Below, in pieces: positions 3,355 to 27,358 of a stretch of DNA of 32,770 bases. How positions within the stretch are numbered: the stretch's first letter is position 1; each line of letters begins with the position of its first letter. The translations under genes and the position numbers were made by a program. Source of the DNA: a virus (taxonomy: Duplodnaviria; Heunggongvirae; Uroviricota; Caudoviricetes); IMG/VR virus record IMGVR_UViG_2913192161_000005, positions 1 through 32,770 of that record, one strand, 5' to 3'. The notes under the pieces are model-generated. The model was not told the origin of the DNA. It did no database searches and worked only from the letters and a program-made list of their open reading frames with translations.

Positions 3355-3626
3355 GTATTCGTATTGAAATTGGCGAACGTTATGTCGTTACCAGTGACAG
3401 CTTTCAGTTTATTCTCCACGAGAAAAAGAGAGCTGAAAGCGGTAAAAACGCCGGTCAGGAATGGCTGGCGGTGGTTGGTTATTACCCGAAATTAAGCCAG
3501 CTCGTTTCCGGCCTGATGCATCACGATATTCTGACCGGAAGCGCAAAGTCTTTTGCTGATTTAAACGCGCAGGTTGAGCAACTCAGCAAGCGTTGTTCAG
3601 AGGCTTTTGGCTCATATGGCCGTTAA
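3351..3626 (+). CDS. Hypothetical protein, 91 aa (P2 orf83 position)
   Basis: ORF 3351..3626 with GGAGA upstream; 3' end overlaps start of A. Confidence 0.5.
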   Translation: MSIRIEIGERYVVTSDSFQFILHEKKRAESGKNAGQEWLAVVGYYPKLSQLVSGLMHHDILTGSAKSFADLNAQVEQLSKRCSEAFGSYGR

Positions 3627-5901
3627 AGCCTCCGGGCGTTTTGTCCCTCCGTCAGCATTTGCCGCAGGCACCGGTAAGACGTTTACCGGTGCTTATGCAT
3701 GGAACGCGCCACGCGAGGCTGTCGGGCGCGAAAGACCCCTTACACGTGACGAGATGCGTCAGGTGCAAGGTGTTTTATCCACGATTAACCGCCTGCCTTA
3801 CTTTTTGCGCTCGCTGTTTACTTCACGCTATGACTACATTCGGCGCAATAAAAGCCCGGTGCACGGGTTTTATTTCCTCACATCCACTTTTCAGCGTCGT
3901 TTATGGCCGCGCATTGAGCGCGTGAATCAGCGCCATGAAATGAATACCGACGCGTCGTTGCTGTTTCTGGCAGAGCGTGACCACTATGCGCGCCTGCCTG
4001 GAATGAATGACAAGGAGCTGAAAAAGTTTGCTGCCCGTATCTCATCGCAGCTTTTCATGATGTATGAGGAACTCTGCGATGCCTGGGTTGATGCACATGG
4101 CGAGAAAGAATCGCTGTTTACGGATGAGGCGCAGGCTCACCTGTATGGTCATGTTGCTGGTGCTGCACGTGCTTTCAATATTTCCCCGCTCTACTGGAAA
4201 AAATACCGTAAAGGGCAGATGACCACGAGGCAGGCATATTCTGCCATTGCCCGCCTGTTTAACGATGAGTGGTGGACTCATCAGCTTAAAGGCCAGCGTA
4301 TGCGCTGGCATGAGGCGTTACTGATTGCTGTCGGGGAGGTCAATAAAGACCGTTCTCCTTATGCCAGTAAACACGCCATTCGTGATGTGCGTGCACGCCG
4401 CCAGGCAAATCTGGAATTTCTTAAATCGTGTGACCTCGAAAACAGGGAAACCGGCGAGCGCATCGACCTTATCAGTAAGGTGATGGGCAGTATTTCTAAT
4501 CCAGAAATTCGCCGGATGGAGCTGATGAACACCATCGCCGGAATTGAGCGTTACGCCGCCGCAGAGGGTGATGTGGGGATGTTTATCACGCTGACCGCGC
4601 CGTCAAAGTATCACCCGACACGTCAGGTCGGAAAAGGCGAAAGTAAAACCGTCCAGCTTAATCACGGCTGGAACCATGAGGCATTTAATCCAAAGGATGC
4701 GCAGCGTTATCTCTGCCGTATCTGGAGCCTGATGCGCACGGCATTCAAAGATAATGATTTACAGGCCTACGGTTTGCGTGTCGTTGAGCCACACCACGAC
4801 GGAACGCCGCACTGGCATATGATGCTTTTTTGTAATCCACGCCAGCGTAACCAGATTATCGAAATCATGCGTCGCTATGCGCTCAAAGAGGATGGCGACG
4901 AAAGAGGAGCCGCGCGAAACCGTTTTCAGGCGAAACACCTTAACCGGGGCGGTGCTGCGGGGTATATCGCGAAATACATCTCAAAAAATATCGACGGCTA
5001 TGCACTGGATGGTCAGCTCGATAATGATACCGGCAGACCGCTGAAAGACACTGCCGCGGCTGTTACCGCATGGGCGTCAACGTGGCGCATCCCGCAATTT
5101 AAAACGGTTGGTCTGCCGACAATGGGGGCTTACCGTGAACTACGCAAATTGCCTCGCGGCGTCAGCATTGCTGATGAGTTTGACGAGCGCGTCGAGGCTG
5201 CACGCGCCGCTGCAGACAGTGGTGATTTTGCGTTGTATATCAGCGCGCAGGGCGGGGCAAATGTCCCGCGCGATTGTCAGACTGTCAGGGTCGCCCGTAG
5301 CCCGTCGGATGACGTTAACGAGTACGAGGAAGAAGTCGAGAGAGTGGTCGGCATTTACGCGCCGCATCTCGGCGCGCGTCATATTCATATCACCAGAACG
5401 ACGGACTGGCGCATTGTGCCGAAAGTGCCGGTCGTTGAGCCTTTGACTTTAAAAAGCGGCATCGCCGCGCCTCGGAGTCCTGTCAATAACTGTGGAAAGC
5501 TCACCGGTGGTGATACTTCGTTACCGGCTCCCACACCTTCTGAACACGCCGCAGCAGTGCTTAATCTGGTTGATGATGGTGTTATCGAATGGAATGACCC
5601 GGAGGTCGTGAGGGCGCTCAGGGGCGCATTAAAACACGACCTGAGAACACCAAACCGTCAGCAAAGAAACGGAAGCCCGTTAAAACCACATGAAATTGCA
5701 CCATCGGCCAGACTTACCCGGTCGGAAAGAATGCAAATTACCCGTATCCGCGTTGACCTTGCTCAGAAGGGTATCAGGCCGCAGCGATGGGAGCTTGAGG
5801 CGCTGGCGCGTGGCGCGACCGTAAATTATGACGGGAAAAAATTCACGTATCCGGTCGCTGATGAGTGGCCGGGATTCTCAACAGTAATGGAGTGGAGATG
5901 A
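3616..5901 (+). CDS. A: Rolling-circle replication initiator A (P2 gpA), 761 aa
   Basis: ORF track 3574..5901 (TTG); ATG at 3616 gives MAVKASGRFVPPSAFAAGTGK..., matching my recollection of the P2 gpA N-terminus, and gives the 761-aa length I recall for P2 A. Contains HWHMMLF and the catalytic-type YIAKYISKN tyrosine motif. Confidence 0.93.
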   Translation: MAVKASGRFVPPSAFAAGTGKTFTGAYAWNAPREAVGRERPLTRDEMRQVQGVLSTINRLPYFLRSLFTSRYDYIRRNKSPVHGFYFLTSTFQRRLWPRIERVNQRHEMNTDASLLFLAERDHYARLPGMNDKELKKFAARISSQLFMMYEELCDAWVDAHGEKESLFTDEAQAHLYGHVAGAARAFNISPLYWKKYRKGQMTTRQAYSAIARLFNDEWWTHQLKGQRMRWHEALLIAVGEVNKDRSPYASKHAIRDVRARRQANLEFLKSCDLENRETGERIDLISKVMGSISNPEIRRMELMNTIAGIERYAAAEGDVGMFITLTAPSKYHPTRQVGKGESKTVQLNHGWNHEAFNPKDAQRYLCRIWSLMRTAFKDNDLQAYGLRVVEPHHDGTPHWHMMLFCNPRQRNQIIEIMRRYALKEDGDERGAARNRFQAKHLNRGGAAGYIAKYISKNIDGYALDGQLDNDTGRPLKDTAAAVTAWASTWRIPQFKTVGLPTMGAYRELRKLPRGVSIADEFDERVEAARAAADSGDFALYISAQGGANVPRDCQTVRVARSPSDDVNEYEEEVERVVGIYAPHLGARHIHITRTTDWRIVPKVPVVEPLTLKSGIAAPRSPVNNCGKLTGGDTSLPAPTPSEHAAAVLNLVDDGVIEWNDPEVVRALRGALKHDLRTPNRQQRNGSPLKPHEIAPSARLTRSERMQITRIRVDLAQKGIRPQRWELEALARGATVNYDGKKFTYPVADEWPGFSTVMEWR

Positions 5902-6353
5902 TGGCAAAAATTCACGAGGTAAAGCTGCACGCAAAATATTTCGACCTTGTGCTGGAAGGAAAGAAACGCGCAGAGTTTCGGAAAAATGACCGTAATTATG
6001 AGCACGGGGACACGTTGATTTTGCATGAATGGGGGCAGGGTGTGTATACGGGGCGAAAGGTTGAAGCCCGGATAACAGATGTTACTGACCTGTCAGACTG
6101 GCTGGAAGATTATGTCTTGCTAAGTATTGAGCTGCTTAATACAGGCGCATATGAGATTGTGAACTGGAAAGAACTTAGTGAGCGTGGTCTGGTATTCAGA
6201 ATTAATCATGAAATTATGCATCAGCTCGGCCTTGCTGTTATGTATGAACCAGAGACGGGGATGTCTGGCGGGGCAATGGTTGCCACGGATGGAGCATGGA
6301 ACTATTCAGATGAACAGATGGAGCGTGCACAGCAAAACGGGTGGCTTGGATAA
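5898..6353 (+). CDS. DUF3850/ASCH-like protein with C-terminal extension, about 151 aa (P2 orf91 position)
   Basis: In-frame ATG at 5898/5901 within ORF 5865..6353, overlapping A stop. N-terminal MAKIHEVKLHAKYFDLVLEGKKRAEFRKNDRNYEHGDTLILHEW fits the DUF3850 (ASCH-like) pattern as I recall it. Confidence 0.65.
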   Translation: MMAKIHEVKLHAKYFDLVLEGKKRAEFRKNDRNYEHGDTLILHEWGQGVYTGRKVEARITDVTDLSDWLEDYVLLSIELLNTGAYEIVNWKELSERGLVFRINHEIMHQLGLAVMYEPETGMSGGAMVATDGAWNYSDEQMERAQQNGWLG

Positions 6354-6559
6354 TGCACAGAATACCAGGCGAGATACCGCACCATAAAACTAAAAATATC
6401 AAGCTGATGGCTATTGTTCAGCGTTTACAGCGGATTATGGTCAACGAAAATCTGACGCCCGATGAGCTGGTCGGGTGTGCCGAAATAGTCCGGGATAATT
6501 ACGGGCGGTTTAATCATATCGGTCAATCAAGAGTTACGCCACCACCACGCAGACGATAG
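6353..6559 (+). CDS. Small hypothetical protein, 68 aa
   Basis: ATG at 6353 overlapping the upstream stop (TAATG) within ORF 6341..6559. No recognisable motif; stop is 3 bp before repeat copy 1. Confidence 0.35.
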   Translation: MHRIPGEIPHHKTKNIKLMAIVQRLQRIMVNENLTPDELVGCAEIVRDNYGRFNHIGQSRVTPPPRRR

Positions 6560-6561
6560 AG

Positions 6562-6630
6562 AACGCCGCCAGTCGTGAAACTTGTTTTCAGGGCTGGCGG
6601 GGTTGAACAACGAGCGAAGCGAGGCGTTAG
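6562..6630. repeat. 69-bp structured direct repeat, copy 1
   Basis: aacgccgccagtcgtgaaacttgttttcagggctggcggggttgaacaacgagcgaagcgaggcgttag. Roughly 62 of 69 positions identical to copy 2. Internal 15-position hairpin (ccgccag...ctggcgg) and outer complementary ends aacgcc/ggcgtt. Confidence 0.7.
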
Positions 6631-6782
6631 TTGACAGACATATTTTTACTGCGTTGGTGCCGGTTTTTGACGGTTGAAAGGAGTTAGGTTGGAGAGCTAA
6701 CAACTTACAAATATTCAAAAGTAAGCATCCTGTTGCTAACATGAGGTCGATTTTTTATGTGGATGATGCAAAAAGGATAGCT

Positions 6783-7514
6783 ATGGATACTATAATCGCT
6801 TTTCTATCACTCGCTTTTTTCGTTGCTTTCTTCATCGGGTTAATCAAGCCATCACTGGTGCGAATGCCAAACCGCAAACGTGCAAGTGCGGTTTATCTCG
6901 GAGGAGGTTTTGTATTGAGCATAATTGGTTCAATACTCTATCCAACAGAAAAAAGCCAGCCAGTTGCCAAAACTGAAACATCAACCGTTGCAGAACACAA
7001 AGTCCAAAAAACATTCGAATATGGTGAAAAAACACTCAAGGAATATCGGAACGAGTCAAAGAAAACACGACACGATATTGTGAATAGTTACATTGATTTT
7101 AAGGAAGTGCCAGTCACCGCATCAGATGCATTTTATGCCTGCATGAGTGAGTATACATTTACCAAAGATGATGAGTTGAAACTCGGTGATGTTCTTGGGT
7201 GGTGCTTTAATGATTATGAAAATGCCCCGGATTCACTAAACAATAAAATCAATCTTGATACATTTCAGAGTAATTTTAGTGGTTGGGATGGTTCTTATCG
7301 TCCATTGGAAAAACTAATTAAAGATAATATGAACGATGATTCATCTTATAAACATGTGTCAACGGTATATCATTTGGTTTTGAATAAAGACCCGCACGCC
7401 ATTGTGAAAACCACGTTTCGCGGCACTAATGCTTATGGTGGAGTGGTAAAGCAGACCGTAGCGGCGCGCGTCAACGTGCGAACGGGTGAGGTCGATTCGA
7501 TACTCGACAATTAA
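6783..7514 (+). CDS. Cargo membrane protein, two N-terminal TM helices plus about 170-aa soluble domain, 243 aa
   Basis: ORF track 6741..7514; ATG at 6783 has AAGGA upstream and is preferred. Hydrophobic stretches IIAFLSLAFFVAFFIGLI and AVYLGGGFVLSIIGSILY. AT-rich; no P2 backbone counterpart recognised. Confidence 0.6.
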   Translation: MDTIIAFLSLAFFVAFFIGLIKPSLVRMPNRKRASAVYLGGGFVLSIIGSILYPTEKSQPVAKTETSTVAEHKVQKTFEYGEKTLKEYRNESKKTRHDIVNSYIDFKEVPVTASDAFYACMSEYTFTKDDELKLGDVLGWCFNDYENAPDSLNNKINLDTFQSNFSGWDGSYRPLEKLIKDNMNDDSSYKHVSTVYHLVLNKDPHAIVKTTFRGTNAYGGVVKQTVAARVNVRTGEVDSILDN

Positions 7515-7528
7515 ACAATATAGTGACA

Positions 7529-7597
7529 AACGCCGCCAGTACTGAAACTTGTTTTCAGTGCTGGCGGGGTTAAACAACGAGCCACGCGAGGCGTTAG
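7529..7597. repeat. 69-bp structured direct repeat, copy 2
   Basis: aacgccgccagtactgaaacttgttttcagtgctggcggggttaaacaacgagccacgcgaggcgttag. Starts 15 bp after the stop of the 6783..7514 gene; hairpin ccgccagtactgaaa-cttg-ttttcagtgctggcgg at 7533..7567. Confidence 0.7.
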
Positions 7598-7621
7598 ACT
7601 AAATTAAATTGAGGCCGAAAA

Positions 7622-8284
7622 ATGCTTTGGAAAGTGATTACATTTGTACTTGTCGGTGTTTGTATTTTTGTTCTCGGCTTATGGCTAGGTTCTATTCAGG
7701 CTGAATGGTCGAAACCAGAGCATAAAGATGCTGTTGCTTATTTAACTATGATAGGCGGATGGGTCTCAGGAATTGCAACATCAATAGCAGTAATTGTTTC
7801 ACTGTATGCGACATATCAATCATCACAAAATAATATTGAAAAATTAGCTTTATTCTATAAGCCTTACCCGAGCGATAATAATGAAAATTACTGTGCAAAT
7901 GTTGAAGTGAAGAATATGCGGAGTGTTTCGGCGCATATACAAGAGTTTTGTTTGGAAATTAGTGGGGTAGATGGTCACATCAATATAAACAAACTAAAAG
8001 CTAATGGGCTACGAATCCCGTATTCTTTATGCCAAATAGGCGAAGTATGGGAGTTTGCTTTTTATCCTGCTGCAAGTCAGAAAAATATGAAGTTCTATCA
8101 TGAACTGAGTGTTAATGGGAGTCCAACTTTCCGAAGTGGTTTCTTTGTGGTTAAAACATCAATGAAGCAATACAAACTAAGGATACCTAAAGTGTTGTTG
8201 AGAATGATGAAAGCTAACTATGAAAAACAAATAAAAATACGGGAGATGTATAAGGAAATGCATGGTAAAGATATGGATATATAA
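7622..8284 (+). CDS. Cargo membrane protein, two N-terminal TM helices plus about 150-aa soluble domain, 220 aa
   Basis: ORF 7622..8284 with GAGG upstream. Hydrophobic stretches VITFVLVGVCIFVLGLWLGSI and VAYLTMIGGWVSGIATSIAVIVSLYA. Strongly AT-rich. Confidence 0.6.
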   Translation: MLWKVITFVLVGVCIFVLGLWLGSIQAEWSKPEHKDAVAYLTMIGGWVSGIATSIAVIVSLYATYQSSQNNIEKLALFYKPYPSDNNENYCANVEVKNMRSVSAHIQEFCLEISGVDGHININKLKANGLRIPYSLCQIGEVWEFAFYPAASQKNMKFYHELSVNGSPTFRSGFFVVKTSMKQYKLRIPKVLLRMMKANYEKQIKIREMYKEMHGKDMDI

Positions 8285-16899: not shown

Positions 16900-17329
16900 T
16901 GCCGTCACGGTGCTGAAAACCAGCCCCGAGATGCTGCGGATATTCGTGGATAACGGGAGTATTGCCTCCACACTGGCGACGTCGTTGTCATTCGAAAAGC
17001 GTTACACGCTCAATGTCATTGTGACCGACTTTACCGGTGATTTTGACCTGCTCATTGTGCCGGTGCTGGCGTGGCTGCGGGAAAATCAGCCCGACATCAT
17101 GACCACCGACGCAGGCCAGAAAAAGGGCTTCACGTTTTATGCAGACATCAACAATGACAGCAGCTTTGATATCAGCATCAGCCTGATGCTGACCGAGCGT
17201 ACGCTGGTTAGTGAGGTGGGCGGTGCGCTGCATGTGAAGAATATCCCGGAACCTCCGCCGCCGGAGCCGGTCACCCGCCCGATGGAGCTGTATATCAATG
17301 GCGAACTGGTGAGCAAGTGGGATGAATGA
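16862..17329 (+). CDS. R: Tail completion protein R, 155 aa
   Basis: ORF 16862..17329; size and position as P2 R. Confidence 0.88.
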   Translation: MLKPDSLRRALTDAVTVLKTSPEMLRIFVDNGSIASTLATSLSFEKRYTLNVIVTDFTGDFDLLIVPVLAWLRENQPDIMTTDAGQKKGFTFYADINNDSSFDISISLMLTERTLVSEVGGALHVKNIPEPPPPEPVTRPMELYINGELVSKWDE

Positions 17330-17774
17330 GTTTAAGCGTTTTGAAGACCGACTGACCGGACTGATTGAGTCGCTGTCACCGTCAGGGCGTCGGCGACTGA
17401 GTGCCGAACTGGCGAAACGTCTGCGGCAGAGTCAGCAGCGTCGGGTGATAGCACAGAAAGCCCCGGACGGCACACCCTACGCGCCACGCCAGCAGCAGAG
17501 CGCCAGAAAAAAGACCGGTCGCGTTAAGCGAAAAATGTTTGCGAAACTTATCACCAGTCGTTTTTTGCATATCCGCGCCAGCCCGGAGCAGGCATCAATG
17601 GAATTTTACGGCGGGAAGTCACCGAAAATCGCCAGCGTGCATCAGTTCGGTCTGTCGGAAGAAAACAGGAAAGACGGTAAGAAAATTGATTATCCGGCGC
17701 GTCCTCTGCTCGGCTTTACCGGTGAGGATGTGCAGATGATTGAAGAGATTATTCTGGCTCACCTGAATCGCTAG
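17322..17774 (+). CDS. S: Tail completion protein S, 150 aa
   Basis: ORF 17322..17774, overlapping R stop; size and position as P2 S. Confidence 0.88.
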   Translation: MNEFKRFEDRLTGLIESLSPSGRRRLSAELAKRLRQSQQRRVIAQKAPDGTPYAPRQQQSARKKTGRVKRKMFAKLITSRFLHIRASPEQASMEFYGGKSPKIASVHQFGLSEENRKDGKKIDYPARPLLGFTGEDVQMIEEIILAHLNR

Positions 17775-17877: not shown

Positions 17878-18951
17878 TTACTTGCCATTTTTCAATGCAT
17901 TGATTAACGATGCTATTTGTTCAATACCATCAAATGTAGATGGTATCTTATCATCGGATAGCATGATGTTCGAAAATACTACGTCTTCAAATTTTGAAAG
18001 AGCTTCTGGGTTGTTTTCCCTTATCTCTGAGGAATAGTCGCTATAACTCTGAATAAACTGACAAAGGCTCTTTCTGAGTTCTATTTGCATAATCTGAGTT
18101 CGTAACGATATGTGATTTATCAGTACAACTCTAAAGTAATACATGAAAATCAATGTGACTGATGCAAAAGGTAGTGCTGACATGAAATATGTGGCAGCAT
18201 TTGTCGTTTCGAGAGTTGGTAATTTATGCATTCCATAGTATATCAGCGGGGATGGGATGATTATAGCTAAGATGATAAGGATTATTCTTGATAGTAAAAT
18301 TTCACGTTCTTTCTTTTTGCCAAGTGAATTAAAGCCTTCAAACAATCCAACAAAATTAAATGCGACCTCATACCCTTTCAATGATTCTTTAATTGACTCT
18401 ATTTTGGTATGTTGTTCCTTTAAAAAGGACTCGCATTTTTCGAAAAATTGACGACCTTCGCTTAAACTATCAATATATTTTTTATATGTGTCCACATTGC
18501 CTGAGCTTAAAACTTCTTTAACCATTGCTAATGGTAGTTCTCTAAGAGAAAAGTCTATCTGTGCTCTGCTTTGTTCATCGAATTCATTATAGTTATACAG
18601 AGCGAAATCCTTGATGGTTTTTAGTGGTGAAAAGAAAGTATCTGTCTCAGGAGAGAGAATACTTGGCTCAATAATAAATCTAAAAAAACAAGTGAATATA
18701 AAATTGATGCTGTTGTTATCCTCTCCCTTTTCTTTTAATAAGTTTGTAAAGGTATTACCAATCCTGACAATGTTGTACTGGGATTTTTTGTCCCAATCTT
18801 CTGGGTTTTCAGAAATGAAGTCTATTGCTTGAGCAATTATTTTGTTTCTGTTTGATTCAAAGGTTGTGCTGGGTGTCAGCGTGTTCAAAAAGACCAGATA
18901 ATCTTTGAACAATTCTTTCATTGTTTTTGATGAGAAAAAGTAAGTGTTCAT
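17878..18951 (-). CDS. Cargo membrane protein at the orf30 locus, about 358 aa (start uncertain: 18951, 18921 or GTG 19047)
   Basis: ORF track 17878..19047 minus; the GTG at 19047 would overlap the V start, so ATG 18951 (MNTYFF...) or 18921 (MKELFK...) is more likely. Soluble N-terminal region of about 250 aa, then two hydrophobic helices (ILLSRIILIILAIIIPSPLIYYG, AATYFMSALPFASVTLIFMYYFRVVLI), then a C-terminal domain of about 80 aa. AT-rich, opposite strand to flanking late genes. Confidence 0.7.
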   Translation of the reverse strand: MNTYFFSSKTMKELFKDYLVFLNTLTPSTTFESNRNKIIAQAIDFISENPEDWDKKSQYNIVRIGNTFTNLLKEKGEDNNSINFIFTCFFRFIIEPSILSPETDTFFSPLKTIKDFALYNYNEFDEQSRAQIDFSLRELPLAMVKEVLSSGNVDTYKKYIDSLSEGRQFFEKCESFLKEQHTKIESIKESLKGYEVAFNFVGLFEGFNSLGKKKEREILLSRIILIILAIIIPSPLIYYGMHKLPTLETTNAATYFMSALPFASVTLIFMYYFRVVLINHISLRTQIMQIELRKSLCQFIQSYSDYSSEIRENNPEALSKFEDVVFSNIMLSDDKIPSTFDGIEQIASLINALKNGK

Positions 18952-19037
18952 TATGGATTTTGTTGTCCCTTGTTGTTCTGTGCACCAGAAATCGTTGCGT
19001 GATTTACTTCGGGATTGTACAGAATCATTATTCTCGA

Positions 19038-19667
19038 ATGAATACACAATACAATGAAATACTTCGCTTTATACGCAATATGATTCGCACCGGCATTATC
19101 GTCGAAACCGACCTTAACGCCGGTCGCTGCCGTGTGCAGACCGGCGGCATGTGCACCGACTGGCTTCAGTGGCTGACCCATCGCGCCGGACGTTCGCGCA
19201 CATGGTGGGCACCTTCCGTGGGGGAACAGGTGTTGATTCTGTCCGTGGGCGGTGAACTCGACACGGCGTTTGTTCTGCCGGGGATTTATTCCGGCGATAA
19301 TCCCGCGCCGTCTGCGTCGGCGGATGCCCTGCATATCCGTTTCCCTGACGGGGCGGTGATTGAGTATGAACCCGAAACCAGTGCACTTACGGTAAGCGGA
19401 ATTAAAACGGCCAGCGTGACGGCTTCTGATTCTGTTACCGCCACGGTGCCTGTGGTCATGGTGAAAGCATCAACCCGCGTCACCCTGGACACACCGGAGG
19501 TGGTCTGCACCAACAGGCTGATTACCGGCACGCTGGAAGTGCAGAAGGGCGGGACGATGCGCGGCAACATTGAACACACCGGCGGTGAACTCTCATCAAA
19601 CGGTAAGGTACTGCATACCCATAAACACCCCGGCGACAGCGGCGGCACAACCGGGAGTCCTCTATGA
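19038..19667 (+). CDS. V: Baseplate spike/assembly protein V, 209 aa
   Basis: ATG at 19038 within ORF 18921..19667; size close to P2 V; first gene of the V-W-J-I-H-G block. Confidence 0.88.
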   Translation: MNTQYNEILRFIRNMIRTGIIVETDLNAGRCRVQTGGMCTDWLQWLTHRAGRSRTWWAPSVGEQVLILSVGGELDTAFVLPGIYSGDNPAPSASADALHIRFPDGAVIEYEPETSALTVSGIKTASVTASDSVTATVPVVMVKASTRVTLDTPEVVCTNRLITGTLEVQKGGTMRGNIEHTGGELSSNGKVLHTHKHPGDSGGTTGSPL

Positions 19668-21457: not shown

Positions 21458-24082
21458 ATGAGCACGAAATTTAAAACCGTTATCACTACTGCCGGAGCCG
21501 CAAAGCTGGCAGCCGCCACTGTCCCCGGCGGGAAAAAAGTAAACCTGTCTGCAATGGCCGTGGGTGACGGTAATGGCAAATTGCCGGTGCCGGATGCCGG
21601 TCAGACGAAACTGGTGCATGAGGTCTGGCGTCATGCTCTGAATAAAGTCAGCGTGGATAATAAGAATAAAAACTATATCGTGGCTGAACTGGTTGTACCG
21701 CCCGAAGTGGGCGGCTTCTGGATGCGTGAGCTTGGTCTGTATGACGATGCCGGAACACTGATTGCGGTATCCAACATGGCAGAAAGCTATAAACCAGAAC
21801 TGGCTGAAGGCTCCGGACGTGCGCAGACCTGCCGCATGGTTATTATTCTCAGCAATGTGGCGTCCGTTGAGCTGAGTATTGATGCCAGCACAGTGATGGC
21901 GACGCAGGATTATGTCGATGACAAAATCGCAGAGCATGAGCAGTCCCGCCGCCATCCTGACGCCACGCTGACAGAAAAAGGTTTTACTCAGTTAAGCAGT
22001 GCAACAAACAGCACCAGTGAAAAGCTGGCGGCAACGCCAAAGGCAGTAAAAGCAGCCTATGACAATGCTGAGAAACGTCTGCAGAAAGACCAGAACGGTG
22101 GCGATATTCCAGATAAGGGCGCTTTTCTGGACAATATTGGCGTTACCAGCCTGACGTTTATGAAACACAATGGAATGATTCCAACCACTGACAATCTTGA
22201 CTCCTATGGCCCAGAAGAAAAATATCTTGGAACGTGGTCATGTCCGTCACAATCCACTGCAAAACCAGAGTCTGGTTACCCTGAAGATAAAGGCAATGGG
22301 GTTCTGGAAGTATTCAATGCTGGTCGCTTTCACTGCACACAACGCTACACCACCCGAACCGGTAATATTTACATTCGGATGCTTGATGCAGAATGGAACC
22401 CTGTCAGTCCTGTATGGAGTGCATGGAGAGTTATTACAAGCGGGACTCGCCCATTAAGCACGTCAATTGACCTGAATTCTTTAGGTGGTGCGGAACACCT
22501 GGGAATATGGCGCAATAGCAGTACATCAATAGCCTCATTTGACCGTCATTTCCCGGAGGAAGGGAGTTTTGGGCAGGGTATTCTGGAAGTCTTTGAAGGC
22601 GGTCTGTATGGGAGGATGCAACGTTACACCACCCGTAGTGGGACTATGTACATTCGCGGACTGACTGCCTCATGGGATGCAGAAAATCCACAATGGGAGG
22701 ACTGGATTGCTGTTGGGTATCAGTCCACGGGATGGACTTATTCAGGGGATCTTGATGACCTTTTAAAGCCTGGTATTTATAGCGTTACGAAACAGGCCAC
22801 AAATGCACCTGTCACCGACTCTAAAGATCTTGCTGTTGGCTCAATAGTTGAAGTGAAAAAACGTTGTGATATTGAATCGTATATCCAGACATACACGACT
22901 GTTTCAGCAACGGATGCCTATAAAAACCGGACATTTCAGCGAACCCGCGCCAGCGGTGAAACTGACTGGGGGGAATGGGCGGAAGTATACAACTCAAAAT
23001 CATTACTCACTAAATTAGGTGTCGGCGGTGTTACCGACAGGTTATCCAGTCTGGACTGGCAGACCTACGACTTTATACCGGGCAGCATGATAACTGTCAG
23101 GCTTTCAGATATGACCAATATTCCCGATGGGATGGAATGGGGCGTCATTGATACTAACCTGATAAATATCACTGTTGGCCCCAGTGAAGGCGGAGGTGTC
23201 GCCCGTTCAATGCAGGTATGGCGCAGCACTTCAAACAAAACCAACTATCGTTTTTTTACAGTCCGCTTATATGGAAATCCTGGGGAGCGTAGCTTCAATA
23301 TTCGTCGGCTACCAATTATCGACGAAGCCCAGACATGGGAGGCAAAACAGACATTCAGTGCAGGCCTTTCTGGTGAACTGTCCGGCAATGCGGCTACAGC
23401 AACAAAGCTGAAAACGGCAAGGACAATTAACGGCGTAAAATTTGACGGCTCGGCAAATATTGAAGCGTTTCCGCCTGGTGTTCCGCTGCCGTGGCCATCA
23501 GATACACCACCTGCGGGCTATGCAATTATGCAGGGGCAGACGTTTGATAAGGCAGCATATCCGAAACTGGCTATAGCCTATCCTTCTGGTGTTATTCCAG
23601 ATATGCGCGGCTGGACAATCAAGGGCAAACCCGCCAGTGGGCGTGCCGTATTGTCACAGGAACAGGACGGGATTAAATCGCATACTCACAGCGCCAGTGC
23701 GTCAAATACGGATTTGGGAACGAAAACAACCAGTTCATTTGATTACGGCACGAAGACAGTCAGTACGTTTAACTACGGAACAAAAACCACTAATACCACA
23801 GGTAACCATACACATACCATTTACAGAGGGAATGCCAATACTAATGGTGAAACCGGTAAAACAGGCTTTGACAACCCATCGTTTAATGGCACATCAGGAG
23901 CTGCCGGGAATCATGCCCACACGGTAGATATTGGAGCACATAACCATACTGTTGGTATTGGTGCACATTCACACACGGTTGCTATTGGCTCACACGGGCA
24001 CTCTATTACCGTTAATGCTACAGGTAATACCGAAAACACCGTCAAAAACATCGCATTTAACTATATTGTGAGGCTTGCATAA
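21458..24082 (+). CDS. H: Tail fibre protein H, 874 aa (P2-like N-terminus, divergent distal part)
   Basis: ORF 21458..24082. N-terminal roughly 200 aa ([25 protein letters not shown]...[43 protein letters not shown]) matches my recollection of P2 H. C-terminus has His-x-His-rich repeats ([36 protein letters not shown]) typical of fibre tips. Longer than the size I recall for P2 H. Confidence 0.9.
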
Positions 24083-24660
24083 TGGCTTTCAGAATGAGTG
24101 CAGAAGCACAAACTATCCGCGTTTTCAATTTACTTGATGGAACCAATGAATTTATTGGCGAAAGTGATGCATATATTCCGCCGCATACAGGTCTGCCTGC
24201 AAACAGTACAGATATTACACCACCTGATATTCCGGCGGGTTTTGCTGCCGTTTTCAATGCAGATGAAATGAAATGGGAACTGATGGAAGACCATCGCGGA
24301 AAGACTGTCTATGAAACGAAAACGGGAGCAGCCATTTATATTTCTGAACTTGGCGCATTACCTCCAGACGTGACAGCCATTTCCCCGGAGGGGGATTATC
24401 AGAAATGGAACGGCAATGCGTGGGTGAATGATGAGAATGCAGAGCGTGATGCGCTTGTCAGAGCGGCTGACTCTCAGAAGAAAGAGCTGATTGCATATGC
24501 AGGTGAAATTATTGCCACGCTGCAGGATGCTGTCGATTTAGATATGGCTACCGAGGAAGAAAAGTTAAGCCTGACACACTGGAAAAAATACCGTGTGTTA
24601 CTGAATCGCGTTCAGCCGGAAGATGCTCCGGATATAGAATGGCCGGAAATGCCGCAATAA
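24082..24660 (+). CDS. G: Tail fibre assembly chaperone G, 192 aa
   Basis: ORF 24082..24660 starting at the H stop (TAATG); position as P2 G. Confidence 0.85.
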
Positions 24661-24759
24661 ATTGTAGAAGCTCTGATGTGAGTTTATACATCTATGGCAC
24701 AGAGTAAAAAATAATCTGACAGTTCGCTCTGTGCCAAAAGCAGAATTTACCTCTTACGA

Positions 24760-25866
24760 TTATACACCATGTAAAAAACGGTTATTTCTTCGTCGCTCTC
24801 CCTCGCTGCTAACTTCATTAAAAAATCCTCTGCTAACATCATCAGAAACATCAATAATGTGTTTTAACGCAGAAAGGGTCTCAAATTGCTTGCTCGTTAA
24901 GGCTGACTTATCAATCGCTAATTGCTCGTCATTTACATCTTTTAAGTAAGAAAAATACTTACCCAAAAAGCCTGCGATAACATCAGATAGTTGGACAGCC
25001 TCTGAGTCGTGGGATTTAACGAATTCATGATTCTGTATTGGTATGCCATTTTCAGTTAACGGGAAGTTTTTAACTTCATCTTGAATGCTTTTTTCTTCAT
25101 CAAATATGTGAATGGAATTTTTAAATAGATACAAGTTTCTTAAATAGAATACCATAAAGCTATCGATCAGTTCTCGACCATGAAATCCCGATATGAACGG
25201 TAGTTCTTCGATTTTTAGAGATTCTTTAACCAAATTTTCGAGTGCGAGTGCTCGAAAATCTGGTAGCATACAACTGTGCATGCATGTAAAATCGATAAGC
25301 CAGAGGCAAAACTCATAAACTTTTTCTTCTGGAATATCGGGGTAGTTAAATTTATGTAGAGCATTCAGGAAAACATCGGGATTGCTATTGGCAAGCTCAT
25401 AAAAATCGCTCTTAAATGACATGTGGTTCATGATATAAAAAGGATTGTGTAGCTCTCCAATAATAGAATCAACAATGTCAATAATAGACCAGTATGTGAC
25501 ATTAAGATTAAAATAATGGATATAGAAATTGTTTTCGATAAGCCAGTTTAGAATAATTAAAATCTTATCAGATTTAAGCATGTCCAAAAAACTACCCTTA
25601 GCAATATGTCTGAGTTTTAACTCATGGGCACTTTTTTGAAGATTAAGCTTTTGAAATAGGGTTGAATAATCGCTGTCAGTGCTTAACCCTTTGTGTAGTA
25701 TTCCTGCAAGGATGAAATTATCCGCCTTTACAACATTGAAACCAGAATCTTTTAAATATAGTTTTCGAATGTTATTCGTTTCATCATAATAAAACGTATA
25801 GACTTCATCAGTATTTTGAAGACCATTATGCTTGATAAGTAACTCTCTAAGTTCATTGACATCCAT
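24760..25866 (-). CDS. Cargo protein at the Z/fun locus, 368 aa, with DUF3800-like motifs (tentative)
   Basis: ORF 24760..25866 minus, ATG at 25866. AT-rich; opposite strand to G and FI. N-terminal YTFYYDETNN and C-terminal VQLSDVIAGFLG resemble the D-E-S and Q..D motif pair I associate with DUF3800; unverified. Confidence 0.75.
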   Translation of the reverse strand: MDVNELRELLIKHNGLQNTDEVYTFYYDETNNIRKLYLKDSGFNVVKADNFILAGILHKGLSTDSDYSTLFQKLNLQKSAHELKLRHIAKGSFLDMLKSDKILIILNWLIENNFYIHYFNLNVTYWSIIDIVDSIIGELHNPFYIMNHMSFKSDFYELANSNPDVFLNALHKFNYPDIPEEKVYEFCLWLIDFTCMHSCMLPDFRALALENLVKESLKIEELPFISGFHGRELIDSFMVFYLRNLYLFKNSIHIFDEEKSIQDEVKNFPLTENGIPIQNHEFVKSHDSEAVQLSDVIAGFLGKYFSYLKDVNDEQLAIDKSALTSKQFETLSALKHIIDVSDDVSRGFFNEVSSEGERRRNNRFLHGV

Positions 25867-26036
25867 TTTATTCCCCTAATGCAATTCTCAAACTAAGATT
25901 AATTTCAGTAATCATCATATAAAGTTAGCCTAACAAACATATTAATGAATGTCTGCTATTCGCTCAAGGCAGACTGTCAGATTTAATAGCGTTTTGATTA
26001 TGTAACTTGTCAGCTGGAAGCTAAGTGAGAACAAAT

Positions 26037-26071
26037 AAAGAAAAGGCGGGCTGATTGCCCGTCTTTTCTTT
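26037..26071. terminator. Bidirectional intrinsic terminator / insulator between the Z/fun cargo island and FI
   Basis: Long hairpin aaagaaaaggcgggc-tgatt-gcccgtcttttcttt (about 15 bp of stem with one G-U), with A/T runs on both sides. Confidence 0.6.
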
Positions 26072-26167
26072 ATCTGTTGTTTCATTCACTGACCAGCCAG
26101 GTCAAATAGCGTCTCATGCACTGCCCAACAGAAAATAGTTGTACCCATTAACCACGGAGTTAAACGG

Positions 26168-27358
26168 ATGAGTGACTATCATCATGGCGTGCAGGTGCTG
26201 GAGATTAACGACGGCACCCGCGTCATTTCCACTGTATCCACTGCCATTGTCGGCATGGTCTGCACGGCCAGCGATGCGGATGCGGAAACCTTCCCCCTCA
26301 ATAAACCGGTGCTGATTACCAATGTGCAGAGCGCAATTGCAAAGGCCGGTAAAAAAGGCACGCTGGCGGCGTCGCTGCAGGCCATCGCCGACCAGTCAAA
26401 ACCGGTCACCGTTGTCGTGCGCGTGGAAGACGGCACCGGCGACGACGAAGAAACGAAACTCGCGCAGACCGTTTCCAATATCATCGGCACCACTGACGAA
26501 AACGGTCAGTACACCGGACTGAAAGCCCTGCTGGCGGCGGAGTCGGTAACCGGTGTTAAACCGCGCATTCTCGGCGTGCCGGGACTGGACACCAAAGAGG
26601 TGGCTGTTGCACTGGCATCAGTCTGTCAGAAGCTGCGCGCTTTCGGGTATATCAGCGCATGGGACTGTAAAACCATTTCCGAGGTGAAAGCCTATCGCCA
26701 GAATTTCAGCCAGCGTGAGCTGATGGTCATCTGGCCGGATTTCCTCGCATGGGATACGGTCACCAGTACCACCGCCACCGCGTATGCCACCGCCCGTGCA
26801 CTGGGCCTGCGCGCTAAAATTGACCAGGAGCAGGGCTGGCATAAAACGCTGTCCAACGTCGGGGTGAACGGTGTTACCGGCATCAGCGCATCTGTATTCT
26901 GGGATTTGCAGGAGTCCGGCACCGATGCTGACCTGCTTAACGAGTCAGGCGTCACAACGCTGATTCGTCGTGACGGTTTCCGCTTCTGGGGTAACCGTAC
27001 CTGCTCTGATGACCCGCTGTTCCTCTTTGAAAACTACACCCGCACCGCGCAGGTGCTGGCCGACACGATGGCTGAGGCGCACATGTGGGCGGTGGACAAG
27101 CCCATCACCGCAACGCTGATTCGCGACATCGTTGATGGCATCAATGCCAAATTCCGAGAGCTGAAAACAAACGGCTATATCGTGGATGCGACCTGCTGGT
27201 TCAGTGAAGAATCCAACGATGCGGAAACCCTCAAGGCCGGAAAACTGTATATCGACTACGACTATACCCCGGTGCCTCCTCTTGAAAACCTGACCCTGCG
27301 CCAGCGTATTACTGATAAATACCTGGCAAATCTGGTCACCTCGGTTAACAGCAATTAA
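26168..27358 (+). CDS. FI: Tail sheath protein FI, 396 aa
   Basis: ORF 26168..27358; size and position as P2 FI. Confidence 0.93.
   Translation: MSDYHHGVQVLEINDGTRVISTVSTAIVGMVCTASDADAETFPLNKPVLITNVQSAIAKAGKKGTLAASLQAIADQSKPVTVVVRVEDGTGDDEETKLAQTVSNIIGTTDENGQYTGLKALLAAESVTGVKPRILGVPGLDTKEVAVALASVCQKLRAFGYISAWDCKTISEVKAYRQNFSQRELMVIWPDFLAWDTVTSTTATAYATARALGLRAKIDQEQGWHKTLSNVGVNGVTGISASVFWDLQESGTDADLLNESGVTTLIRRDGFRFWGNRTCSDDPLFLFENYTRTAQVLADTMAEAHMWAVDKPITATLIRDIVDGINAKFRELKTNGYIVDATCWFSEESNDAETLKAGKLYIDYDYTPVPPLENLTLRQRITDKYLANLVTSVNSN

What the first reader, a model, noticed from the sequence alone, without database searches (positions are those of the whole stretch)
24760..25866. Z/fun hotspot carries a 368-aa AT-rich minus-strand protein with DUF3800-like motifs
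A single ORF on the opposite strand lies between the tail-fibre assembly gene G (ends 24660) and the sheath gene FI (starts 26168), which is the position of Z/fun in P2. Its island is visibly AT-rich (spot counts of 60-nt stretches give roughly 35-40% GC here against roughly 60% or more in structural genes; these are approximate hand counts). A long hairpin at 26037-26071 separates it from FI. The protein has an N-terminal YTFYYDETNN and a C-terminal VQLSDVIAGFLG that resemble the D-E-S / Q..D motif pair I associate with DUF3800, a family without an established function. P2-family variable loci are known to hold anti-phage genes (Old, Tin and Fun in P2 itself), so this is a strong candidate for an uncharacterised single-gene defence or exclusion function.
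Basis: partly seen in the sequence, partly recalled or inferred. Interest (0 to 1): 0.78.

Follow-up and report, generated by a model that had tools for sequence, protein, structure and literature searches.

The report
RNase H-like defence candidate, P2 hotspot
A P2-like prophage carries, in its known variable slot between the tail-fibre and tail-sheath genes, one imported AT-rich gene for a DUF3800 protein with an RNase H-like nuclease fold; the family is already listed as an untested anti-phage candidate, so this is a plausible and easily tested lead but not a new kind of system.

Summary

Corrections: the long hairpin (26035-26073) and the flanking inverted repeats belong to the slot, not the cargo. 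The same slot occurs in non-P2 phages, and its boundary element flanks the gene in a Vibrio island.

Best reading: a stand-alone, self-regulated metal-dependent nuclease used for phage exclusion. Its role and substrate are inferred. I found no experimental test of a stand-alone DUF3800 protein. I rate it a new member of a known kind, of moderate interest.

The parts
24760..25866 (-). DUF3800 / PDC-S51 gene. It encodes a 368-aa protein with an RNase H-like core (beta strands 23-29, 36-39, 51-59, 115-121, 252-256), a helical insertion of about 130 residues, and a C-terminal helical region.
25867..25921 (-). 5' leader that travels with the gene. It contains the Shine-Dalgarno sequence AGGGGA and a conserved TATGAT -10-like hexamer.
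   Evidence: Nucleotide homology to the Vibrio, Shewanella and Pectobacterium loci starts at 25921-25886. The consensus scan found no strong sigma-70 site.
24726..24759 (-). 3' trailer that travels with the gene. It runs into the boundary element.
   Evidence: Homology to non-P2 loci ends at 24726-24730.
24695..24745 (.). Left boundary of the slot (the 'left inverted repeat'). It has a 10-bp hairpin TGGCACAGAG/CTCTGTGCCA and a degenerate GTTCGC-N12-GCAGAA element.
   Evidence: Inverted repeats I1 and I20. Conserved in P2, P2-EC58, P24A7b, 9W and Stx phages. Annotated as a repeat_region in AJ512683.
25951..25983 (.). Right boundary of the slot (the 'right inverted repeat'): GTCTGC-N12-GCAGAC followed by TGTCAGATT.
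   Evidence: Annotated in AJ512683. 100 viral stretches (apparently the reporting cap; 80 loci returned) carry its core.
25984..26034 (.). Conserved spacer of the slot between the right repeat and the terminator. Its function is unknown.
   Evidence: Conserved in P2-type and non-P2 slots.
26035..26073 (+). Rho-independent terminator-like hairpin of the slot, shaped to work in both directions. It ends next to the mapped position of the pF activator site.
   Evidence: Three different stem sequences keep the hairpin and T-run across slots. The P2 annotation of the pF activator site, shifted by the 8,516-nt offset between the FI start codons, maps to about 26071-26099.
24082..24660 (+). Gene G (tail-fibre assembly), the left neighbour.
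   Evidence: Caudo_TAP, E 2e-40.
26168..27358 (+). Gene FI (tail sheath), the right neighbour.
   Evidence: Phage_sheath_1, E 2.6e-33.

Best explanation
The gene is horizontally acquired cargo in the hypervariable Z/fun slot of a P2-like prophage. It encodes a stand-alone DUF3800 enzyme.

Shown: the protein has an RNase H-type core. Invariant carboxylates and polar residues (D28, E29, D130, H253, D256, E258, Q292, D295) are available for a metal-ion centre. The core carries a helical insertion of about 130 residues and a C-terminal helical region. The gene has its own leader and no partner gene.

Inferred: it is expressed from the lysogen and protects the host, and therefore the prophage, against other phages. 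I think the most likely mechanism is a self-contained sensor-nuclease. The helical regions keep the RNase H-like centre inactive or untargeted until infection. The enzyme then cuts a nucleic acid typical of phage replication or transcription, most plausibly RNA:DNA hybrids or structured RNA or DNA. That either blocks the invader directly or aborts the infected cell.

My rough probabilities are: real, selected accessory gene about 0.95; RNase H-fold nuclease about 0.7; anti-phage role about 0.6; the specific substrate and activation scheme about 0.3.
For: Identity:
- Pfam DUF3800 above the cut-off, with both motifs invariant.
- PADLOC PDC-S51 over the full length.

Fold:
- pLDDT 94 and pTM 0.91.
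- The best Foldseek PDB hits are also RNase H2/HII.
- Independent literature calls DUF3800 RNase H2-like or an RNase H-fold nuclease (PMC7736814, PMC10910872, PMC12669027).

Selection and spread:
- dN/dS 0.16-0.19.
- 1,130 representatives, nearly all stand-alone proteins of about 370 aa.

Defence association:
- Vibrio integrase-bounded island with PD-T7-1 immediately upstream plus SIR2 and DUF87.
- Alteromonas with Shedu, GmrSD and DUF4365.
- Pectobacterium mobile element with Shedu.
- Shewanella next to JetC/JetD and NERD.
- PDC families were derived from genes embedded in BREX, DISARM and type I RM loci.

Locus:
- P2 fun(Z), which blocks T5, occupies the same slot.
- Vassallo 2022 found three validated systems at this locus.
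- In my survey, 60 slots held 44 cargo types, including PD-T4-6 and PDC-S71.

Single gene:
- The cargo is about 1.2 kb with one ORF.
- The upstream neighbours in Vibrio and Shewanella are unrelated to each other.
Against: - I found no experimental test of any stand-alone DUF3800 protein. The full-text search for DUF3800 returned 18 papers and none was a defence assay. PDC entries are explicitly untested.
- Guilt by association is imperfect. Seven of 10 other slot cargos had no PADLOC match. P2 hotspots also hold non-defence cargo such as partition systems and cdt toxins (PMC9122126).
- Similarity to RNase H is by fold only. The profile gave no PDB sequence hits, hhalign against E. coli RNase HII gave nothing, and the Foldseek E-values are not significant.
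- I could not check that the invariant acids cluster in space, because model coordinates are not exposed.
- No clear sigma-70 promoter was found.
- The gene is rare: 6 of 5,426 complete E. coli genomes and 2 of 80 surveyed slots.
- Other DUF3800 proteins work with partners (a retron RT, Cas12a2/a3, ncRNAs), so a missing partner cannot be fully excluded.
Confidence: 0.55

Rival explanations
1. The protein is an accessory ('moron') nuclease that benefits the prophage or host in some way other than excluding phages. Examples are removing R-loops or RNA:DNA hybrids, modulating P2 or P4 development, or acting against plasmids or other mobile elements.
For: The nearest structural relatives, RNase HII and H3, are housekeeping repair enzymes. 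P2 hotspots also carry non-defence cargo (PMC9122126). Seven of 10 other slot cargos are unrecognised.
Against: There is no sequence relationship to housekeeping RNase H. The gene is rare and patchy, keeps 33% GC in hosts whose loci are 39-46% GC and in this 51% GC window, and repeatedly lies next to defence systems in unrelated hosts.
Confidence: 0.17
2. The protein is only half of a system. Like other DUF3800 proteins, it would need a non-coding RNA or other nucleic-acid partner (guide, antitoxin or activator) that I did not recognise.
For: Eleven RNA motifs associate with DUF3800 genes (Weinberg 2017). DUF3800 is a retron type VII effector and an accessory protein of Cas12a2/a3. About 55 nt of leader and 34 nt of trailer are conserved together with the ORF.
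Against: No Rfam family, including DUF3800-I and DUF3800-IX which are in the release searched, matched the window or three homolog loci. The leader folds no better than shuffled sequence (z = -0.6). The cargo leaves only about 84 nt upstream and 14 nt downstream of the ORF. The co-conserved trailer is the slot boundary element, which is shared with unrelated cargos.
Confidence: 0.12
3. The protein is a mobility enzyme, that is, a DDE-type transposase or integrase relative with an RNase H fold that moves the cassette bounded by the inverted repeats.
Against: The same repeats bound 44 different cargo types, and only 2 of 80 slots encode DUF3800. There is one copy per genome in all six E. coli carriers, always at the same locus. 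The best fold matches are RNase HII/H3, not transposases.
Confidence: 0.05
4. The gene is a decaying or inert passenger with no current function.
For: It is rare and AT-rich, and no strong promoter was found.
Against: The full-length ORF is intact. dN/dS is 0.16-0.19. Putative catalytic residues are invariant down to 36% identity. The length is uniform across 1,130 representatives.
Confidence: 0.03

Closest known systems
Pfam DUF3800 (PF12686)
   Same: The HMM match is above the gathering score. The N-terminal D-E and C-terminal QxxD motifs are present and invariant.
   Different: The 149-position domain is spread over residues 25-302, because this subfamily has a helical insertion of about 130 residues and an extra C-terminal helical region.
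PADLOC phage defence candidate PDC-S51
   Same: End-to-end match (residues 2-366 against profile 4-370 of 376, E 6.6e-107). Both are single-gene.
   Different: PDC-S51 is a prediction only. PDC systems were derived by 'guilt-by-embedding' and are untested. Here the gene sits in a prophage hotspot and not inside a BREX, DISARM or RM locus.
RNase HII / H2 / H3 (type 2 RNase H)
   Different: There is no detectable sequence similarity. The remaining catalytic positions are not alignable, and the literature speaks of a 'catalytic rearrangement'. Large extra domains are present. The gene is accessory and mobile, not housekeeping.
Retron type VII DUF3800 effector (Mestre et al. 2020)
   Same: Same Pfam domain and DE motif. 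Both sit in a defence-related context.
   Different: There is no reverse transcriptase or msr/msd next to this gene. The retron proteins lack the Q of QxxD, and this family keeps it invariant.
TPR-DUF3800 accessory proteins of Cas12a2/a3 and VI-F loci
   Same: Same nuclease domain, predicted to have an RNase H fold.
   Different: No TPR region, CRISPR array or cas gene is present here.
P2 Fun(Z) and other Z/fun-slot cargo (e.g. PD-T4-6)
   Same: Same slot, same minus-strand orientation as fun(Z), AT-rich, single gene. Fun(Z) blocks T5. PD-T4-6 was found as cargo of the same slot.
   Different: The proteins are unrelated. The resemblance is in position and ecology only.
Phage fiAA91-ss orf20 / PHROG 15126
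   Same: The same gene at the same locus, 95.8% nucleotide identity. PHROG 15126 matches at E 4e-247.
   Different: It is annotated only as a hypothetical protein of unknown function.

Membership tests
Pfam DUF3800 (PF12686) | HMM score at or above the curated gathering cut-off | tested here: met
   30 bits against a cut-off of 21, E 1e-6, profile positions 2-147 of 149.
Pfam DUF3800 (PF12686) | N-terminal D-E motif and C-terminal QxxD motif (as described in PMC7736814) | tested here: met
   D28-E29 and Q292-L-S-D295, all invariant in 49 homologs.
PADLOC PDC-S51 | Full-length match to the PDC-S51 model | tested here: met
   E 6.6e-107, residues 2-366 against profile 4-370 of 376. It was the only PADLOC hit.
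PADLOC PDC-S51 | Demonstrated anti-phage activity | not testable with these tools
   PDC systems are described as untested or unvalidated. No assay was found in the literature searches.
RNase H-like superfamily (type 2 RNase H as nearest) | RNase H fold (five-stranded mixed sheet with flanking helices) | tested here: met
RNase HII/H2 family | Sequence or profile similarity to RNase HII | tested here: not met
   The profile gave 0 hits against PDB sequences at E up to 10. hhalign against E. coli RnhB gave probability 0.1%.
RNase H-like superfamily | Carboxylates clustered into a two-metal active site, and metal-dependent cleavage | not testable with these tools
   Invariant D28, E29, D130, D256, E258 and D295 exist.
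P2 Z/fun hotspot cargo | Lies between G and FI, inside the annotated inverted repeats, and is replaced by other cargo in related phages | tested here: met
   In the survey, 56 P2-type slots were found and 60 complete slots held 44 cargo types.
Retron type VII | Adjacent reverse transcriptase and msr/msd ncRNA | tested here: not met
   The cargo is about 1.2 kb with one ORF. No RT domain was reported among the called genes of the five homolog contexts. There were no Rfam hits.
Cas12a2/a3- or VI-F-associated TPR-DUF3800 | TPR fusion and a neighbouring CRISPR-cas locus | tested here: not met
   DUF3800 was the only Pfam family above threshold. The window is a P2 prophage whose large ORFs follow the P2 gene order and leave no room for a cas locus.
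DUF3800-associated RNA motifs (Weinberg 2017; Rfam RF02968, RF02969 and others) | A covariance-model match near the gene | tested here: not met
   No DUF3800 motif at E up to 10 in 24000-27000. Nothing at gathering score in the window or in L003, L005 and L006. The models are in Rfam 15.
Insertion sequence / DDE transposon | Terminal inverted repeats specific to the enzyme gene, and multiple copies per genome | tested here: not met
   The repeats flank 44 other cargo types. There is one copy per genome in 6 of 6 E. coli carriers.

The most novel reading that the evidence does not exclude
Two linked possibilities remain open.

1. The stand-alone DUF3800 protein would be the first experimentally tractable member of a single-protein immunity class built on an RNase H-like nuclease. 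If so, it would also reveal what the DUF3800 module does in type VII retrons and in Cas12a2/a3 loci.

2. The gene may travel as a cassette of a dedicated, integron-like exchange platform. That platform would be the slot defined by the GTCTGC-N12-GCAGAC boundary elements, a conserved spacer and a terminator. The slot is shared by P2-like phages and at least one unrelated phage, and its boundary elements flank the gene in a Vibrio island. Cassettes would move by site-specific recombination and not only by homologous exchange between conserved flanks.
Probability: 0.2. Interest if true: 0.8.

Novelty: new member of a known kind. Interest (0 to 1): 0.5.

Why it matters
DUF3800 recurs in bacterial immunity. 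It is the effector of type VII retrons, an accessory gene of Cas12a2/a3 and VI-F CRISPR loci, and the partner of eleven unexplained RNA motifs. No paper I could search reports a biochemical activity or phenotype for it.

This locus offers the domain in its simplest form: one gene with its own leader, in an E. coli P2 prophage, at a slot that already yielded Fun and several validated systems. A plaque assay with two point mutants would settle whether it defends. A substrate screen could then explain the domain's role in the more complex systems.

The slot may also matter in its own right. If it is a portable docking site shared by unrelated phages and chromosomal islands, that helps explain how defence genes are shuffled.

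Tried and rejected
- NCBIfam gave no hit.
- The alignment profile against PDB sequences gave no hit at E up to 10.
- hhalign of the family profile against E. coli RNase HII found nothing. I therefore do not file the protein in the RNase HII family, only in the fold.
- Foldseek against PDB ranked RNase H2/HII first but not significantly. Foldseek against viral structures found only another DUF3800 protein (E 7e-3).
- The AFDB50 library was unavailable.
- Model coordinates are not exposed to scripts, so I could not test spatial clustering of the invariant acids.
- Rfam, both at E-value threshold around the locus and at gathering score on the window plus three homolog loci, gave no relevant RNA. 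The sraA, mir and Bp1 hits at 26000-26115 are sub-threshold matches to the terminator hairpin.
- I tested the gene of about 440-460 aa upstream in Vibrio and Shewanella as a possible conserved partner. The two are unrelated, and the Vibrio one is PD-T7-1.
- I considered and rejected an IS or transposon reading of 'RNase H-fold ORF between inverted repeats'.
- Nilsson et al. 2004, which first described these repeats, could not be read. What I say about it rests on the GenBank annotation, its title as cited in PMC9122126, and my memory.
- A full-text search for 'PDC-S51' found nothing.
Full report
**1. Observation**

The window is a complete P2-like prophage, and its large ORFs follow the P2 gene order. 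Its closest annotated relative at this locus is phage fiAA91-ss, with 95.8% nucleotide identity.

A 368-aa ORF lies at 24760-25866 on the minus strand. It sits between a Caudo_TAP tail-fibre assembly gene (G, 24082-24660) and the tail sheath gene (FI, 26168-27358). In reference P2, fun(Z) lies at the same place on the same strand. Its annotation reads 'cloned gene blocks growth of T5'.

The island is AT-rich. Windows of 200 nt give 28-38% GC, the cargo as a whole is 33.2%, and the window is 51.1%.

The hairpin at 26035-26073 is real and strong: 17 bp, -33.9 kcal/mol, z = -8.4. Both quoted peptide motifs are present, at residues 23-32 and 291-302.

**2. What the protein is**

- Pfam DUF3800 matches above the curated cut-off, at 30 bits against 21. 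The 149-position model is stretched over residues 25-302.
- PADLOC gives one hit, the single-gene candidate PDC-S51, end to end at E 6.6e-107.
- PHROG 15126 (unknown function) is essentially this protein. NCBIfam has nothing.
- The homolog search found 521 relatives. They are full-length proteins of about 370 aa from Enterobacterales, Vibrio, Shewanella, Alteromonas and more distant Proteobacteria.
- An exhaustive profile search found 1,130 representatives at 50% identity, 554 of them at E ≤ 1e-30. Nearly all are stand-alone, of uniform length, and matched end to end.
- In 49 homologs going down to 36% identity, F25, D28, E29, N31, N32, R34, D130, S134, K152, H253, D256, E258, S285, Q292, D295 and G299 are invariant.
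- dN/dS against the Pectobacterium, Vibrio and Shewanella orthologs is 0.16-0.19.

**3. Fold**

The AlphaFold2 model built from that alignment is confident, with pLDDT 94.1 and pTM 0.91.

At the sequence level there is nothing. The profile gave no PDB sequence hit, and hhalign against E. coli RNase HII gave no match. So the protein has an RNase H-type core but is not a member of the RNase HII family.

The D28-E29 pair lies at the end of strand 1, as in type 2 RNase H. The segment S285...Q292-x-x-D295-V-I-A-G-F-L-G-K looks to me like the RNase HII segment GDS...AASILAK, with the acid shifted along the helix. That comparison is my own by-eye inference, not a test.

The model adds a helical insertion (roughly residues 140-250) and a C-terminal helical region (roughly 300-366) to the core.

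Published work reaches the same fold-level view. DUF3800 is described as 'structural homology to RNase H2' in type VII retrons (PMC7736814). [quoted passage not shown] It is described as an 'RNase H fold nuclease' in VI-F and V-A2 loci (PMC12669027).

**4. Is it a lone gene?**

The cargo between the conserved flanks is about 1.2 kb and holds one ORF. About 84 nt lie upstream of the ORF and 14 nt downstream.

I examined homologs in five contexts:
- E. coli RM7190 has the gene at the same P2 locus.
- Vibrio has it in an integrase-bounded island with SIR2, DUF87, PLD and a methyltransferase.
- Alteromonas has it beside Shedu (SduA_C), GmrSD and DUF4365.
- Pectobacterium has it in a relaxase/integrase element beside Shedu.
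- Shewanella has it next to Wadjet JetC/JetD and NERD.

No neighbouring gene is shared between these contexts. The same-strand upstream genes in Vibrio and Shewanella are unrelated to each other. The Vibrio one is PD-T7-1, a validated single-gene system.

DUF3800 genes are known to associate with eleven RNA motifs (PMC5737381), so I searched Rfam. No DUF3800 motif or other relevant RNA was found around the gene at E up to 10. Nothing reached gathering score in the window or three homolog loci. The DUF3800-I and DUF3800-IX models are in the release searched. The leader folds no better than shuffled sequence.

**5. The locus is a hypervariable slot, and the hairpin belongs to it**

Alignment with P2, P2-EC58, P24A7b and 9W shows that the backbone is conserved up to about 24745 on the left and from about 25951 on the right. 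Each of these phages has a different cargo in between.

The cargo is bracketed by an imperfect 32-nt inverted repeat, at 24713-24744 and 25952-25983. It coincides with the 'left/right inverted repeat' features of GenBank AJ512683.

The inner part of each arm is a small element, GTCTGC-N11/12-GCAGAC.

The long hairpin lies in the conserved right flank. Its T-run ends next to the mapped position of the pF activator site, about 26071-26099. I obtained that position by shifting the P2 annotation by the 8,516-nt offset between the FI start codons.

I scanned viral contigs for the core of the right repeat. The scan reported 100 stretches, which appears to be its reporting cap, and returned 80 loci. 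Of these:
- 56 are P2-type, with FI starting about 207 nt to the right.
- 15 have at least 700 nt of right flank but no FI.
- 9 are undetermined.

Sixty complete slots held 44 cargo clusters. The cargos are 0.2-6.2 kb, nearly all 33-46% GC, mostly hold one or two sizeable ORFs, and occur in either orientation.

Of ten representative cargo proteins, one is the validated PD-T4-6, one is PDC-S71, one matches PDC-S33 weakly, and seven have no PADLOC match. Only 2 of 80 slots carry a DUF3800 gene. Only 6 of 5,426 complete E. coli genomes carry this gene, each once and on the chromosome.

Across slots the hairpin is kept with at least three different stem sequences, always followed by a T-run: GGCGGGC/GCCCGCC, GGCACGT/ACGTGCC and GGGAGC/GCTCCC. 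So it is a structurally conserved terminator of the slot, not a feature of this island.

The scan found no other terminator-like site between G and the hairpin. I therefore infer that late V-operon transcription may run antisense through the gene until 26073. This was not tested.

**6. An unexpected extension**

Nucleotide homology between this cassette and the Vibrio, Pectobacterium and Shewanella loci is 86-90%. It runs from up to 55-57 nt upstream of the ATG (20 nt in Pectobacterium) to 30-34 nt past the stop codon, which is into the boundary element.

The 44 nt immediately upstream in the window (25922-25965, reaching into the right repeat) recur in Vibrio at 95% identity. There they lie upstream of PD-T7-1. 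So in Vibrio, PD-T7-1 and the DUF3800 gene form a tandem pair sharing the same boundary sequences.

A viral contig that is not P2-like (L021) has lysozyme and siphovirus-type tail genes and no nucleotide match to known phages. It carries a 403-aa DUF3800 protein only 29% identical to this one. That gene lies between the same left and right repeats, spacer and terminator, but in the opposite orientation.

The left repeat also occurs in Stx-converting phages.

The slot is therefore portable between phage families, and its boundary elements also flank the gene in a chromosomal island. DUF3800 proteins have entered it at least twice. Whether exchange is site-specific or simply homologous recombination between conserved flanks is open. 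The title of Nilsson et al. 2004 favours site-specific recombination, but I could not read that paper.

**7. Function**

What is shown:
- The gene is intact, under purifying selection and horizontally mobile.
- It encodes an RNase H-fold DUF3800 protein and has no conserved partner.
- It sits in a slot and in neighbourhoods that are enriched for defence.

What is inferred: the protein defends against phages as a self-contained nuclease.

The defence reading has three supports. The first is the PADLOC candidate status, derived independently from genes embedded in BREX, DISARM and RM loci. The second is the five defence-rich contexts. The third is published evidence that this locus is a second P2 defence hotspot with three validated systems (PMC9519451).

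The mechanism I favour is that the helical regions gate or target the RNase H-like centre, which then cuts RNA:DNA hybrids or structured nucleic acid made during infection. This rests only on the fold and on the company DUF3800 keeps: retron msDNA, RNA-triggered Cas12a2/a3, and ncRNAs.

Against it:
- No assay of a stand-alone DUF3800 protein was found, and PDC entries are explicitly unvalidated.
- No clear promoter was found.
- The active-site geometry is unverified.
- The gene is rare.

**8. Verdict**

The hairpin and repeats belong to the slot. The candidate is already catalogued as DUF3800 / PDC-S51 / fiAA91-ss orf20.

I rate it a new member of a known kind. Its interest is moderate. It offers a simple, tractable E. 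coli entry point to a domain that recurs in retron and CRISPR immunity and has no reported activity.

Noticed in passing
window 24695-24745 and 25951-26073; L021 3850-3895 and 5275-5390; L011 2501-2573; L046, L048, L062, L063, L102: The whole Z/fun slot (left repeat, right repeat GTCTGC-N12-GCAGAC+TGTCAGATT, a conserved spacer of about 50 nt, and a terminator) is not confined to P2-like phages. Fifteen of 80 sampled viral loci have it without the sheath gene alongside, and Stx-converting phages carry the left repeat. It looks like a portable docking platform for cassettes.
   Followed up: partly
L003 6463-9144 (Vibrio fluvialis island): PD-T7-1 and the DUF3800 gene lie in tandem between two GTCTGC-N11/12-GCAGAC elements, with a degenerate copy between them. 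The 44 nt that precede the DUF3800 leader in the window precede PD-T7-1 in Vibrio at 95% identity. This resembles a cassette array.
   Followed up: partly
window 17878-19047 (minus strand): A second AT-rich island (34% GC) with a 389-aa minus-strand ORF lies between the 150-aa ORF at 17322-17774 and the next plus-strand ORFs. From my memory of the P2 map, this is the S/V position where P2 has orf30. It has no Pfam or PADLOC hit, and PHROG 9373 is of unknown function. It is another uncharacterised moron in the same prophage.
   Followed up: partly
window 5865-8284: The AT-rich region at about 6.0-8.5 kb lies between the 775-aa ORF (3574-5901) and the minus-strand ORFs from 8595. By gene order I take this to be the P2 old/tin (TO) hotspot. 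It holds an ASCH/DUF3850+DUF7415 protein (5865-6353) and two ORFs (6741-7514 and 7622-8284) with no Pfam or PADLOC hit (PHROGs 3403 and 16957, unknown function).
   Followed up: partly
window 25984-26073 (plus strand): The conserved right flank of the slot ends in a Rho-independent terminator and shows some covarying pairs (AT versus TA at alignment columns 40/51). It could encode a small RNA or be a protein-binding site. No promoter was identified.
   Followed up: no
window 24660-26073: No terminator-like site lies between the end of gene G and the hairpin at 26035-26073. P2 itself annotates a V-operon terminator just inside its cargo. Late transcription may therefore read antisense through the DUF3800 gene.
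   Followed up: no
window 24425-24623 (plus strand): A sub-threshold Rfam match to IS009 (55 bits against a gathering score of 117, E 4e-11, full model length) lies inside the 3' part of gene G.
   Followed up: no
L013 11143-12024 (Pectobacterium parmentieri): A second, shorter DUF3800 protein (244 aa, weak PDC-M04A match) lies about 4 kb from the 370-aa one. A copy of the post-stop motif with 3 mismatches lies about 130 nt beyond its 3' end.
   Followed up: no
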